From Stylophora pistillata (taxonomy: Eukaryota): a DNA stretch of 64,000 nt. Of the stretch, positions 9,526 to 14,797 are shown in pieces. Every line of letters begins with the position of its first letter. Within the stretch, counting starts at the first letter, position 1. The position numbers were made by a program, and so were the translations under genes. The DNA lies in NCBI RefSeq assembly GCF_002571385.2, contig NW_019217926.1, forward strand, positions 158,532-222,531, in the 5' to 3' direction. The notes beneath the pieces were generated by a model. The model saw only the letters and a list, made by a program, of their open reading frames with translations, was not told the origin of the DNA and did not search any database.

Positions 9526-11132
9526 TCTTAGGGAGATAAATTATCTTGCGCATTAAAATCGTACTCCTGCCGTTTTGAGTCAAATTCGTGTCATCCAGAC
9601 TAATCAGCGTTTGGATAACAATCGAAACACCTGTATGATTTAATCCAATAGACATGCCTTAGAATCTATGCACTTTTGAAAACGTCCCGAAAAGTTACGC
9701 GAAGGAAAGTTATCTTCGGCAAAATAGACGTCAAGATTTCAAAATATGGTAACCTTTGTTAGTGTTCCCGATGTAAAAAGTAAAGGTAAAAGAGGGGCAT
9801 TCGAAATCGAAATGTAGTTTTCGATAAAAACGTTCATCACATGAGCAGGGATGATTCTCCTTCTCAGAAAATCTCCATTTGGGCACGTCTAATGTTGCTA
9901 CCTCGGCTGTTCTATAACTTAAGGTTTTTCAGTGTCGGTGGTTTTTAACGCAGAGTATATAAGATAAGCCGGATAAGATAAGACCTTTGTTTAAACACGA
10001 TAATAATTAAAGCTAACAGCTTGAGGGGTCGTGTATTTAGTTTATACATTATTAAATAAGAAGAAGACTAGCTAAATAAGTAAAAAGCTAACATTAACAT
10101 CTTAATCAAAAGTAGAGAAAGTCATCATTTTTATGGTGGACAGCTGAAGCTGAAGCAATATTAAATTTAAAATCTCTAAAATAAGGCTTTGTTTTAAAAT
10201 TTCGAAACAGCTCATTTGGGTTTTTGTGCAAGATATTACGTTCAATTAAGTTAATAGTGTTCTAAGAGATTGCACCTCTATAGGCAAGGGAATCTTGTTG
10301 GAGAAAGAATAATCATATAATGTGATTCGTTGAATAAGATCATATGAGACTCTCTTGGGAATTACACGTGCTCTTCTATTGCGTCATCTAACTATTAACC
10401 TCGCAGTTTCGTTGTTCATCAGTCAGTCGCTGTTGTAACCTTTCTTCGGATCGGAATAAAGATGTATTTCTTAATAAATCTTTCATAAACCTAGTATTAA
10501 ATCTTCGAACTACGCAGTATTGTTAAGTTTCAAATCAATTCAAGGCGGGCAGATCTATTTAGTGTGATAAGTTTATTTTGTGGGATTAATTTATTTAGTA
10601 CTTATCGGGAAGATGGAGAGCGATTGTTTTTCAGGTTCCTAAACAGCTTTTTTTTCTCTTTACCAATCGAACTTAATCTTTACACTTGTTAGTGTAGAGA
10701 TTACTCTTTACTTACTACTTACTCTTTACTTATTACTTGTTAGTTTAAAGATTACTCTTTGGCTTATAAATCTTTTTTCCCTATCAAGTTTTCAGTTATT
10801 TCTTACAAAGCTATCTGCATTTATCTTTGGTTTTTTATTTTAGTTTCTTACCTTTGATTTCATTAATCACACAACAATAGTATCTAAGAGCTCACGCTTC
10901 TTTTTCAAAAGGTTAGTAGTGAAAAAATAAATTTAGAAAAATCTTTCCTCGCTTTACAACTGTTTTGAGCTCAACATTCAGTGGCAGAGGATTTAAACCT
11001 CGGCAAAGATTAATGTCTGATGTCTGCAAAATAACATTATTAACTCGACTCCAAGCCTTTGACCTCCATGATCTTTCTAAGTCTCCTTTCCAAATGTTAC
11101 AAATATCACTAAAGATACTTTTAAAGAATGAA

Positions 11133-11317
11133 ATAGACCACTTTCATAAATGGCTGCCGGATTAATATTCTTTTGTTTAAATTTAAATTAGCCCTACTGG
11201 CCTCGTTCTCCAGTACAAAATTCACAAGAATACATTATCTCAAGCGAGGCCAGTAGGGCTAATTTAAATTCAAACAAAAGAATATTCATACGGCAGCCAT
11301 TTATGAAAGTGGTCTAT
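11133..11317. mobile_element. Palindromic 185-bp MITE (TA-flanked)
   Basis: atagaccactttcataaatggctgcc ... ggcagccatttatgaaagtggtctat with long inverted arms. A second copy lies at 56403-56587. Confidence 0.9.
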
Positions 11318-12584
11318 GTTGCGTCAATTTAACAACGTCCAGCTGATAAGTTTCTTTATCCTCCAAAACTGTTGACTGAATAATATATTGATACTGCAGG
11401 GATAGGTTGCACATGAAACCGCAATTCTTTACTGTCAGCGTCTGAGACTGAAAGAGTAAAAGCACCCACACGATGAGTGAAAAGTACAAAGAAGCCATGT
11501 TTTTTTTATCTTAATTACGCGGAAGTTGGAAATGGAATAAAGATTTCTTTAAGGATTTCTGAACCGCGATTCTTTTCTACCAATGAGGCTGTTACTTTTT
11601 TTTCAAACTAGTTATTGTCTTTCATCTCTGTTTTGCAGGGAGAGCGTTATTTCAGTTTCTTACCCGCGGCTTTCTCAGTCATTTCTCAGTCGCGGAATAC
11701 TAAACAAGAGACACTTCCGTGTTCAACGGTAAGAGGCAAAAATAAAGACAAGATTACTTAACATTCCTTTCCCTACTTTTTTAAAAAAGTGTCCTCGCCT
11801 CCTCAAATCAGGCACAACAGAAATAAAAATTCAGAAAATTCTGACGTAAAAAGGAGCCATAGTGTTTTTCAATGAGCGCTGTGAGCAAAATGGAAAGTCA
11901 TGTCGATACATCACAGACCAAGAGATTGTCAACTGCAGTATTTAATCTTATTATCCAGAGATCTTTTAGTTTTCAAAGGGAGCGGCTAAATATTTATTTC
12001 AGAAATCAGATTTTGCGCTAAAACTTTTAGGATTAAAACTTGCTAATGATAGAGATAACACCCTCTGAATGATGAGTCTGTTTACTCTCACCACTTGTTT
12101 GCTGTATGGTCATGATATTAATATTGTAAGGAGAAGTTACATGTTCATCTCTTTTATGATGCAGGAAAATGAGTGTTAATTTCAAAACGCATACCTCGTG
12201 TACTTTCCTTTTTATGTTTGTTCCGGCCTATTTTTAACAATTACTCCTTCGTTAGTTAATGATTAGTATTTAATAAGTTTCTTATTTCAATCAGTTTCAT
12301 TTTAGCTCATGCACCTGCTGATTGCATTTGAATTTGTTTGTCTCATTTCGTTTTTTACCTTTGTTTTCATTAGTCACCATCAGGATCTGACAGAGGAGGG
12401 CAGGTTCTGTTTTCAAAGGTGAGCTGTTGGCTTTTTTTATTTTCTATATTTTTGTTGGTTCCTTAGTTTCGTTTTCTATGATTAAAATTTACATTATTGT
12501 TTAAAAAAAATAAAACATCTGGAGAAGTTAGTTTAATTTATGAGTTACTGAAGTAACGCGAATTTAGTCGAATAAAATGGAACA

Positions 12585-13030
12585 GGTTATGTTGGTTTCA
12601 CACGCCCTCATCTACACCAACGTATTGAAGAACATAAAAACTCCTCTTCGTCAATTGGCAAACATTTTCGCGACAAACATTCTTTGACTCCAAAGGATCT
12701 TACAAAGAACTTTAGCACCTTAATGAAGTGCACGAACAAATTTGACTGTCTCGTCTATGAGATGTTTTTTATTCACAAGCTAAGATCTGCTCTCAATGTA
12801 CAGTCTGATTCAATTGGTGCTAAGGTTTTTAATTAGCTATTTACTAGCACTTTCTTTGTAGTTTTGTTTGTTTACACCTGCAAAAGATTTTTTCTATTTC
12901 GCACATGTATATATACATATATTTACTGTATTTCATTCCATTCACTTGTCAATGATCGAAGCACGGTCGAAACGTCGTGTTTTACCGTTCATTTTTATCG
13001 TCAAAAGTTTTAAGAAACCCTTGCTTATAA
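12585..13030 (+). mobile_element. Penelope-like element 3' fragment (GIY-YIG C-terminal half) with degenerate hammerhead at 12943-12979
   Basis: 12585-12836 reads GYVGFTRPHLHQRIEEHKNSSSSIGKHFRDKH...FDCLVYEMFFIHKLRSALNVQSDSIGAKVFN*. Downstream lies cac-ttgtcaa-tgatcg...cggtc-GAAAC-GTC-gtg. Confidence 0.8.
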
Positions 13031-13099
13031 GACTTTCAAATGAAAACTGTTGATATATATATATATAATGCTTCTTTCAGCGGGCAAGAAGGACTCGAA

Positions 13100-13805
13100 G
13101 AGGACAACAATGAGACAGAGAAGGAACAACTCGAGAAGGACAACAATGAGACAGAGAAGGAATAACTCGAGAAGGACAACAATGAGACAGAGAAGGAACA
13201 ACTCGGGGAGGACAACAACAAGACAGAGAAGAAACAACTCGAGGAGGACAGCAATGAGAAAGAGAAGGAACAACTCGGGGAGTACAACAATGAGACAGAG
13301 AAGGAACAACTCGGGGAGGACAACAATGAGACAGAGAAGGAACAACTCGGGGAGGACAACAATGAGACAGAGAAGGAACTACTCGGGGAGGACAACAATG
13401 AGACAGAGAAGGAACAACTCGGGGAGGACAACAATGAGACAGAGAAGGAACAACTCGGGGAGGACAACAATGAGACAGAGAAGGAACAACTCGGGGAGGA
13501 CAACAATGAGACAGAGAAGGAACAACTCTGGGAGGACAACAGTGAGACAGAGGAGGAACAACTCGAGGAGGACAACAATGAGACAGAGAAGAAACAACTC
13601 GGGGAGGACAACAATGAGACAGGGGAGGAACAACTCGGGGAGCACAACAATGAGACAGAGAAGGAACAACTCGGGGAGCACAACAATGAGACAGAGAAGG
13701 AGCAACTCGAGGAGGACAACAATGAGACAGAGAAGGAACACCTGGTGGAGGACAACAATGAGACAGAGAAGGAACAACTCGGGGAGGACAACAATGAGAC
13801 AGAGA
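13100..13805. repeat. 36-bp tandem repeat, about 19.5 copies
   Basis: Unit gaggacaacaatgagacagagaaggaacaactcggg. Confidence 0.97.
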
Positions 13806-14797
13806 TGCAACAGACTGACAATTGATCCTACACAAAGATTCTTCTTCCTGCCATTAACATAAAACTGGTACACTGGTATTCTTTGTTTAGAGCTATTTAG
13901 TTTTTTCAAAAAGTAAGTAGTACGTTTTTGGATGCTTTGTAAACATTGCGGAATTGATAGCGAGAGATGAAGAAACCTGAAATTCATTATTATTAATTAT
14001 ATCAATAGCGAACTAAAATATTTTGGATTGGGAAGCTTGAACGCAAGAAATGAGCTAAATATTTCAAAATGTGAGAGGCAAAAATCAAATTTAATCTTTG
14101 ATTTCAACCACCATGATCTGGTTTTCAGTTCTTCTCTAGCATGCGGACGTGATCATCAAACAGTAATAGACTCAGGCGACAAAAAAACACGTTTTAACTT
14201 TGAAAAGATACAAAGAAATACCTGCCAACCTTTCTTATCTCGATAAATCTCGGCCTAAATCGACGAGGCTCTCGCGAAGGCCATAAACCATTACTGTAAT
14301 ATTCCTAGAAGCCACGAAGTTCAATAACTCGAACAACACACCCTTCGAACTTTCGCTCTTTTTCACATACATGCACATTCTCTCGGTCATCTGATTATAG
14401 TCCCGGATGTCCACAGGACACTTACCAGATGAGTCTAAAATTTCCAGAAACGTCTCTCTTTGTGCACTGTACCCTATTTACGTGACTTCGTTGGCAAGAA
14501 ACAATATTTAAACGCTGTGACTGGTGCGAGATATCCAAACGCTGTGATATGGCTGGTGCATGATACATACCCTAATGCGGTAATCTGATTGGTGCATGAT
14601 ACACACCCTATTGTGGCGATCTGACTGGTGAGCAAAATACCACTCTATACCTAAAAATTAACCCAAAAAGGAGACTGTTCAGATTTCGAATTCCAATGTT
14701 GCATAAACTGGGAATTTAAAAGAACTGGTCAGAAGGCATGGCTATATGCTCGGTTTGCTTGTGAAAAGTTTCTGAGTGTCCTTCTTATCACTAGGAT

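What the first reader, a model, noticed from the sequence alone, without database searches (positions are those of the whole stretch)
10844..13825. Hidden spliced gene whose last exon is an acidic, N-glycosylation-rich 12-aa repeat missed by the ORF track
Seen: the 36-bp array starts just after a good acceptor (cttctttcag|13081). In the frame not shown in the ORF track it reads GQEGLE-(EDNNETEKEQLG)x~19-ETEMQQTDN*, so most units carry an N-E-T sequon and about 5 acidic residues. Three upstream candidate exons (10844-10911, 11639-11728, 12374-12418) have canonical sites and chain through phase-2 introns into exactly this frame with no stops. The Arg-rich frame in the track cannot be reached from exons B and C because they have stops in that phase. 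One TAA at 13163 interrupts unit 2. Established: stony corals use acid-rich proteins in their skeletal organic matrix. Inference: this is a lineage-specific acidic repeat glycoprotein that is truncated, allelic or mis-assembled. No first exon or signal peptide was found, and a spliced lncRNA is an alternative explanation.
Basis: partly seen in the sequence, partly recalled or inferred. Interest (0 to 1): 0.7.

Follow-up and report, generated by a model that had tools for sequence, protein, structure and literature searches.

The report
Gutted coral TPR-CHAT gene copy
This is a copy of a gene that corals have multiplied hundreds of times, but it lacks the exon holding its start codon and protein domains, so the acidic repeat is likely a neutrally expanded leftover tail rather than a skeleton protein.

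Summary
In detail: 20 x 36-bp units, TAA at 13163, and three upstream exons that chain into the acidic frame. The glycoprotein reading does not. All four exons have homologs in the coral-expanded TPR-CHAT (TTC28-like) family. In 11 of 24 fetched stretches the order is 5' exons, one large TPR-CHAT exon, then this last exon. That exon normally adds a one-unit acidic tail, as in 29 of 39 named models. Exons A-C behave as 5'UTR: splice sites are kept, frame is not, and the start codon lies in the large exon. Here that exon is missing and a 5'-truncated Penelope-like element sits at the join. Two DNA-like runs bridge the left junction. Array substitutions look neutral. Three RNA runs give no reads on the exons, without a positive control. 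Verdict: a likely dead paralog with a minisatellite-like tail expansion; ordinary birth-and-death decay. The scan noted TPR-CHAT copies and decay elsewhere in this genome. Open: the right junction, C/T at 13163, and one unconserved ATG with a signal-like peptide.

The parts
9150..9319 (+). Likely first-exon region of the family; its start is not determined; donor GTCGTG|GTAAGT at 9319
   Evidence: GT donor kept in 14 of 14 paralogs aligned; homology block P1
8999..9025 (+). Lone ATG plus GTAAGA donor, in phase with exon A, giving a signal-like MVKSVIGGVFLTF; likely chance
   Evidence: ATG and donor not found together in frame in any of 5 homologous stretches aligned over the site
10844..10911 (+). 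Exon A, likely 5'UTR exon
   Evidence: 20 of 22 paralog copies keep AG and GT; lengths 54-109; mod 3 = 0/1/2 in 11/2/7
11133..11317 (.). Palindromic high-copy repeat (MITE-like) in intron A-B
   Evidence: self-inverted match and a second copy at 56403-56588; attracts reads from other loci
11639..11728 (+). Exon B, likely 5'UTR exon
12374..12418 (+). Exon C, likely 5'UTR exon
12419..12582 (+). Remnant of the intron that in paralogs leads to the TPR-CHAT exon
   Evidence: aligns to paralogs up to 12582
12583..13031 (+). 5'-truncated Penelope-like element (GIY-YIG end) at the place of the missing TPR-CHAT exon
   Evidence: dozens of copies at 86-97%; the 19 copies examined are not cut at 12583: those with readable flanks share further element sequence 5' of it; GIY-YIG E 1e-3, below cut-off; left junction bridged in X18 and X19
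13032..13080 (+). Last ~49 bases of the family's final intron with its acceptor
   Evidence: 87% match of 13034-13162 to C143:392.4k
13081..13825 (+). Exon D coding part: homolog of the TPR-CHAT acidic tail exon, phase-2 acceptor, stop TGA 13823-13825
13093..13812 (+). 36-bp tandem array, 20 units (one unit in most paralogs, two in the nearest)
   Evidence: 4 of 22 distinct substitutions synonymous against 4.95 expected
13163..13165 (+). In-frame TAA in the acidic frame
   Evidence: state in other individuals not resolved
13110..13862 (+). Arg-rich ORF opened by the first ATG of an A-B-C-D RNA; likely a by-product of the repeat
   Evidence: no homologs; exact sequence not in the protein collection
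13826..14100 (+). Homolog of the family 3'UTR
   Evidence: 68-81% to paralogs

Best explanation
The locus is a copy of the coral TPR-CHAT (TTC28-like) gene family that lacks the one large exon carrying the start codon and all TPR and CHAT sequence, and it is likely a non-coding remnant whose 36-bp array likely grew neutrally from the family's one-unit acidic tail exon. Shown: intact paralogs run exon 1 - A - B - C - large TPR-CHAT exon - short acidic last exon; here C and the last exon are 662 bases apart, and 449 of these bases are a 5'-truncated Penelope-like element. Inferred: the element inserted about 49 bases before the last acceptor and its truncated 5' end joined intron C, deleting several kb (insertion-mediated deletion; recombination between two copies would look the same). 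Inferred: the tail unit went from one to two copies in the lineage shared with the nearest paralog (C143:392.4k) and then to 20 by slippage or unequal exchange; whether before or after the deletion is not known. Any A-B-C-D RNA would have no start codon in the acidic frame, and the family has no sign of secretion, so the N-E-T sequons are predicted to be unused.
For: The array exon hits three other loci, each just behind a CHAT exon; the nearest paralog is TPR_12 E 3e-90 plus CHAT E 1e-53. Full order 5' exon(s)-TPR-CHAT-D in 11 of 24 fetched stretches. 29 of 39 NCBI/nr models end in a one-unit tail after the CHAT end, none in more; one (P0025) ends in the very tail translated from paralog C173. 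16 of 39 models and 11 of 17 own-genome paralogs start at an M(S/N)xxAxIL-type Met inside the large exon. A-C do not keep frame; 6 of 9 paralog chains are closed in all three frames. No TPR or CHAT match in the window or the 50 kb before it. C-to-D distance 662 against 4.2-10.1 kb in six intact paralogs. No synonymous excess in any of six frames. Zero depth on A, B, C and the start of D and no splice joints in X21, X22, X24; X1 contigs cross exon borders unspliced. X18 and X19 each have one contig 12236-12637 across the left junction at flank depth. A second copy, C226:132.5-143.2k, also lacks TPR and CHAT and has a tRNA-like repeat at its join.
Against: The right junction (13031/13032) was not among the contig pieces shown (294 not shown), so a collapse of two element copies around an intact exon is not excluded. 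The orphan search scored 40 of 118 candidates. The RNA test read 2-6% of three runs that were added by species label, are not shown to carry this locus, and had no positive control. The A-B-C chain is open in exactly the acidic frame (shuffle P=0.021), all splice sites are intact, and a lone ATG plus donor at 8999-9025 is in phase and signal-like (KD 9-mer 2.31). The neutrality test has only 22 distinct substitutions and little power. Six fetched stretches show 5' exons without TPR-CHAT within the range fetched, and some paralogs (C104, C341) may be duplicate haplotypes, so 11 is not a count of independent loci.
Confidence: 0.85

Rival explanations
1. The gene is intact in the animal, or in some haplotypes: two same-strand copies of the Penelope-like element flank the TPR-CHAT exon and were collapsed in assembly, so the real product is a TPR-CHAT protein with a tail of up to 20 acidic repeats (two if the TAA is real).
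Against: No element match in any of 42 fetched stretches around paralogs; 12 of 15 further CHAT loci have their own last exon, and the other 3 have no element beside them. The 5' truncation point is not shared with the 19 copies examined. No long-tailed TPR-CHAT among 120 close homologs or in a search for longer proteins (weak). No N gap at the join.
Confidence: 0.07
2. The remnant is still transcribed and spliced from the family promoter and acts as a long non-coding RNA, or yields the 250-residue Arg-rich repeat peptide from the first ATG at 13110.
For: Promoter-side region, exon 1 donor and all splice sites are retained; the Arg-rich frame has no stop over 250 codons and is the first ATG-opened frame.
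Against: No reads or spliced contigs; no synonymous excess in that frame (5 of 22 against 5.15 expected); the frame is open simply because the unit has no stop in it; no homologs.
Confidence: 0.05
3. One reading: a new secreted acidic glycoprotein assembled from the wreck, with a new ATG exon (8999-9025) giving a signal-like peptide, the old UTR exons read in frame, and a 20-unit sequon-rich acidic tail that binds calcium in the skeletal matrix; TAA at 13163 would be an allele or an error.
For: The chain is open; MVKSVIGGVFLTF has a KD 9-mer of 2.31; 40% D+E and 18 sequons would exceed the ~30% acidic content given for CARPs (PMC8086859, passages).
Against: ATG plus donor unconserved and it would have to skip the conserved donor at 9319; zero raw RNA depth over 8701-9869 and the exons; TAA after two units; no coding constraint; sequon absent from most paralog tails.
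Confidence: 0.03

Closest known systems
Coral TPR-CHAT domain-containing proteins, the TTC28-like expansion (PMC12314368 section 15 part 1 and passages; PMC9145168 and PMC6208414 passages)
   Same: Homologous 5' exons, introns, last exon with phase-2 acceptor, acidic tail frame and 3'UTR; 136 CHAT matches in this genome; tandem duplication and copy-number change are described for the family.
   Different: This copy has no TPR, no CHAT and no family start codon, and has 20 tail units instead of one. The passages read do not describe the exon layout, the tail exon or internally deleted copies.
Retrotransposon insertion-mediated deletion (LINE-1, Alu; only reference titles seen in PMC8232201; mechanism recalled)
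   Same: A 5'-truncated retroelement sits exactly at the join of two distant parts of a gene, with the sequence between them gone.
   Different: The element is Penelope-like (GIY-YIG), not L1 or Alu; no paper holding all four terms was found; recombination between two copies is not excluded.
Coral acid-rich proteins, CARPs/SAARPs (PMC8086859 passages)
   Same: The conceptual translation is over 100 residues and 40% D+E.
   Different: No conserved start or signal peptide, no expression seen, an early stop, and descent from the tail of a TPR-CHAT gene. Sequence homology to CARPs was not tested directly; Pfam gives no family.

Membership tests
TPR-CHAT (TTC28-like) protein-coding gene | N-terminal TPR array | tested here: not met
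   no tblastn match in the window or 50 kb upstream
TPR-CHAT (TTC28-like) protein-coding gene | C-terminal CHAT domain (PF12770) | tested here: not met
   present in the nearest paralog, E 1e-53
TPR-CHAT (TTC28-like) protein-coding gene | Start codon in the large exon | tested here: not met
   exon absent; no ATG in A, B, C
Remnant derived from the TPR-CHAT family | Collinear homology of non-coding exons, introns, last exon and 3'UTR with intact paralogs | tested here: met
Remnant derived from the TPR-CHAT family | No coding constraint on what remains | tested here: met
   4 of 22 synonymous against 4.95 expected, 1 stop against 1.3 expected; low power
Remnant derived from the TPR-CHAT family | Deletion exists in the animal, not only in the assembly | tested here: inconclusive
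   left junction bridged in X18 and X19; right junction and whole span not shown
Coral acid-rich skeletal protein (CARP/SAARP) | Over 100 residues with about 30% or more Asp/Glu | tested here: inconclusive
   40% in the conceptual frame, but TAA at 13163 ends it after two units
Coral acid-rich skeletal protein (CARP/SAARP) | Secreted (signal peptide behind a real start codon) | tested here: inconclusive
   none in A-C (KD 9-mer 0.86); one unconserved candidate at 8999-9025; no signal-peptide predictor was run
Coral acid-rich skeletal protein (CARP/SAARP) | Expressed as a spliced mRNA | tested here: not met
   no depth or joints in 3 raw RNA runs, unspliced contigs in X1 and X2; limited depth, no positive control
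Coral acid-rich skeletal protein (CARP/SAARP) | Peptides in the skeletal proteome | not testable with these tools
   no proteome search available; supplements of skeletome papers were not read
Penelope-like element (12583-13031) | GIY-YIG endonuclease at the C-terminus | tested here: inconclusive
   PF01541 E 1e-3, 19.8-20 bits against cut-off 22.6
Penelope-like element (12583-13031) | Reverse transcriptase upstream in longer copies | tested here: inconclusive
   FVDD motif seen by eye in the L006 ORF (motif recalled); no Pfam RT hit

The most novel reading that the evidence does not exclude
A secreted acidic glycoprotein is being born from the wreck of a TPR-CHAT gene: after a retroelement removed the coding core, a new ATG exon supplied a signal-like peptide, three former UTR exons fell into frame, and the one-unit acidic tail expanded twentyfold into a sequon-rich calcium-binding repeat, with alleles lacking the TAA segregating in the population.
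Probability: 0.03. Interest if true: 0.75.

Novelty: new member of a known kind. Interest (0 to 1): 0.13.

Why it matters
As it stands it is ordinary: one decayed copy in a family already known to expand and turn over in corals. Small by-products: the exon layout of this TPR-CHAT subfamily (duplicated short 5'UTR exons, one large coding exon, a short acidic tail exon), and two copies that lost the whole coding exon with a mobile element at the join, which suggests one way copies die. It also warns that acidic, sequon-rich repeats in coral genomes can be leftovers of other genes and should not be read as skeletal proteins without a start, a signal peptide and expression. If the novel case were true, it would be a traceable origin of a biomineralisation-type protein from spare parts.

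Tried and rejected
Rfam scan for snoRNA-host or other RNA genes: 3 tRNA-like hits, none in 8-14 kb. Protein searches with the acidic frame (longer proteins) and the Arg-rich ORF found nothing; both are low-complexity, so this is weak. Exact look-up of both frames: not in the collection. Pfam on both frames: nothing above cut-off, only Mucin-like at E 0.006 for the Arg frame. An X1 contig leaving the locus at 12415 looked like a possible intact allele; its loose end matches one place on contig C34 with a 4-base shared junction and is not TPR-CHAT sequence, so it is read as a likely chimera. Orphan TPR-CHAT exon flanked by the element: none in the stretches fetched. C or T at 13163: no row in either lay, but contigs break inside repeats and raw RNA had no depth, so nothing follows. 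Summed contig depth over the array (X18 about 24 times flank, X19 far higher) is not a copy number and was not used. Literature: searches listed no paper on this locus type; only listings and the passages named were seen, and no supplements were read. No structure prediction or complex job was run.
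Full report
1. Observation. Tandem Repeats Finder gives a 36-bp array at 13093-13812, 20.0 copies, 92% matches. The three upstream candidate exons have AG/GT ends and chain without stops into the acidic frame; there is one TAA at 13163-13165; the Arg-rich frame is closed in A, B and C. 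The acidic frame has 18 sequons and 100 D+E in 247 codons. The literal observation is confirmed. RNA run labels read 'coral metagenome', and the nearest named relatives of the paralogs are Stylophora and Pocillopora TTC28-like proteins.

2. What the last exon is. A search of the own genome with 13081-13825 gave 4 matches: the window and three other loci. In all three the match lies about 500 bases behind the end of a long ORF with TPR repeats and a CHAT domain; the nearest (C143:392-396k) scores TPR_12 E 3e-90 and CHAT E 1e-53. Of 27 own-genome last exons tried, 17 were parsed by the script; 16 have about one unit, 1 has two, and 4 of 17 carry a sequon. Of 120 close homologs, 39 come from NCBI/nr models: 29 of 39 end in a one-unit tail of the type KEELEEDNNEAEKKQSDY, 8 stop at the CHAT end, 2 use another frame, and none has more than one unit; 2 of the 29 tails hold a sequon (counted by eye from its output). 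So the frame is ancestral, the sequon is not conserved, and the 20-fold array is particular to this locus among those seen.

3. What exons A-C are. Exon B with flanks has 36 matches in the genome and CHAT has 136 (135 of 327 candidates scored). I fetched 24 stretches, chosen around exon-B, CHAT and last-exon hits plus the 50 kb before the window. In 11 of 24 the order is at least one of A, B, C, then TPR, CHAT and the last exon on one strand; six hold 5' exons only within the range fetched; the rest are partial or gapped. C104 and C341 copies resemble each other and may not be independent. A further donor at 9319 is kept in 14 of 14 paralogs. In 11 of 17 paralogs the ORF starts at an M(S/N)xxAxIL-type Met inside the large exon, in six of them visibly 12 bases behind a CAG acceptor; the other 6 are gapped or frameshifted. 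16 of 39 named models begin at the same Met. A-C are therefore best read as 5'UTR exons. A, B and C also resemble each other, which suggests old duplications of one exon-intron unit.

4. What is missing. tblastn finds no TPR or CHAT in the window or the 50 kb before it. Exon C and the last exon are 662 bases apart against 4.2-10.1 kb in six intact paralogs. Window 12419-12582 aligns to the intron after C, 13034 onwards to the end of the final intron, and 12583-13031 is a repeat with dozens of copies (40 of 1413 candidates scored). The 19 copies examined are not cut at 12583 (those with readable flanks share further element sequence 5' of it) and most end at 13003-13032, so this copy is 5'-truncated. 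It encodes a GIY-YIG-like end (E 1e-3, below cut-off), and a longer copy has an FVDD motif upstream in the same ORF (no Pfam RT hit). 'Penelope-like' is thus an inference from recalled architecture. Deletion on retroelement insertion is known for L1 and Alu (recalled; only reference titles seen in PMC8232201).

5. Is the deletion real? X18 and X19, two samples of one study with even depth over introns, each have a contig 12236-12637 across the left junction at flank depth; they differ from the window at several sites and from each other at three, so they are likely other haplotypes. No loose end at 12582 was listed (28 rows not shown). The right junction was not among the pieces shown. No element copy was found in any of the 42 stretches fetched; of 15 further CHAT loci, 12 have their own last exon and 3 have none in range, and none has the element beside it (picked, which scored 40 of 118 candidates). 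Collapse of two copies is unlikely but open. A second copy, C226:132.5-143.2k, has exon 1, A, B, C and the last exon without TPR or CHAT; its join holds a tRNA-like repeat that matches window 24295-24388.

6. Constraint and expression. The 20 units carry 31 differences from their majority unit, 22 distinct. In the acidic frame 4 are synonymous (4.95 expected), 17 change a residue and 1 makes a stop (1.3 expected); no frame shows a synonymous excess (lowest P 0.15). The test has little power. In X21, X22 and X24 (35.5 million records, 2-6% of each run) depth is zero in the bins holding A, B, C and 13043-13180 and over 8701-9869; reads fall on interspersed repeats only; the two joints listed are not splice joints. 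These runs were added by species label and are not shown to carry the locus, and no expressed paralog was laid as control. X1, which does carry it, has contigs at depth 2-5 that cross exon borders unspliced; X2 has an intronic contig and no cover of B. The state of 13163 in other individuals is unresolved.

7. Results against my reading. The A-B-C chain is open in exactly the acidic frame (shuffle P=0.021; any frame 0.065; 3 of 9 paralog chains also have an open frame). Among 9 GTRAG donors between 2600 and 10800, two have an in-phase ATG; the one at 8999-9025 lies in the family's 5' region and would give MVKSVIGGVFLTF, with a KD 9-mer of 2.31. In the 5 homologous stretches aligned over it, ATG and donor never occur together in frame. 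This is the basis of the novel case, put at 0.03.

8. Comparison with what is known. TPR-CHAT genes number 276 and 304 in two Acropora genomes and up to 362 in Pocillopora effusa, with tandem expansion and haplotype copy-number differences (PMC12314368, section 15 part 1 of 2 and passages); expansion is also reported in Montipora (PMC9145168, passages) and Pocillopora damicornis (PMC6208414, passages). This locus descends from that family but fails its defining features (TPR, CHAT), so it is filed as a remnant, not a member. CARPs are described as secreted skeletal proteins with about 30% or more acidic residues (PMC8086859, passages); only the composition fits. Searches listed nothing on the tail exon or on internally deleted copies; supplements were not read and might list such models. 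Earlier notes of the scan describe TPR-CHAT copies and their decay on other DNA of this genome; they were seen after this reading was formed.

9. Verdict. A likely dead TPR-CHAT paralog whose coding exon is replaced by a truncated retroelement and whose tail exon carries a local repeat expansion (0.85). Rivals: assembly collapse or intact allele (0.07), functional non-coding or Arg-rich product (0.05), new secreted acidic glycoprotein (0.03). Interest 0.13.

Noticed in passing
G000:C226:132514-143214 (L048, L049): Second family copy with exon 1, A, B, C and the last exon but no TPR or CHAT; a tRNA-like repeat sits at the join of intron C and the final intron.
   Followed up: partly
window 2738-2970 and 4027-4619 against 8672-8904 and 8919-9524: An older (78%) duplicate of the family's promoter and exon-1 region lies 5 kb upstream, separated by mobile-element remnants.
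   Followed up: partly
G000:C247:144.6-152.4k, C671:94.6-97.7k, C341:11-14k: The 5' exon-intron units (A/B type) occur in two or three tandem copies within single loci, so 5'UTR exon number varies between paralogs.
   Followed up: partly
G000:C83:575.9-577.9k; also C135, C671, C694, C724, C90: 5' exons of the family without TPR or CHAT in the range fetched (none in about 22 kb behind exon B on C83); possibly further broken copies.
   Followed up: partly
window 4600-5940 (-): Decayed ORF pieces that look, from recall, like the first ORF of a DIRS-type retroelement; not tested.
   Followed up: no
window 7486-7860 (+): A second, different GIY-YIG-like element end, judged by eye.
   Followed up: no
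window 19501-20337 (-) and 21159-21995 (+): Two divergently oriented, intronless-looking ORFs of 278 aa with an N-terminal hydrophobic stretch that resemble, from recall, ABHD14-type alpha/beta hydrolases; likely a local duplication.
   Followed up: no
window 18082-18155, 24270-24342, 26021-26093: Three tRNA-like Rfam hits at 40-47 bits, probably tRNA-derived SINEs; the one near 24.3k matches the repeat at the C226 join.
   Followed up: partly
window 15013-15594: A 582-base palindrome (95.5% self-inverted); a related sequence lies behind the last exon of the nearest paralog at C143:391.4-391.7k.
   Followed up: no
run X1, contig on window 12236-12415: The contig shares five SNPs with X18 and X19, then leaves for a sequence found once on contig C34 with a 4-base shared junction; likely a chimera, possibly a rearranged allele.
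   Followed up: yes
P0001, P0119; paralogs on C104, C341, C2064: A sub-group of paralogs has a different start of the last exon, and two named models read that exon in another, basic frame, so the tail frame is not fixed across the family.
   Followed up: partly
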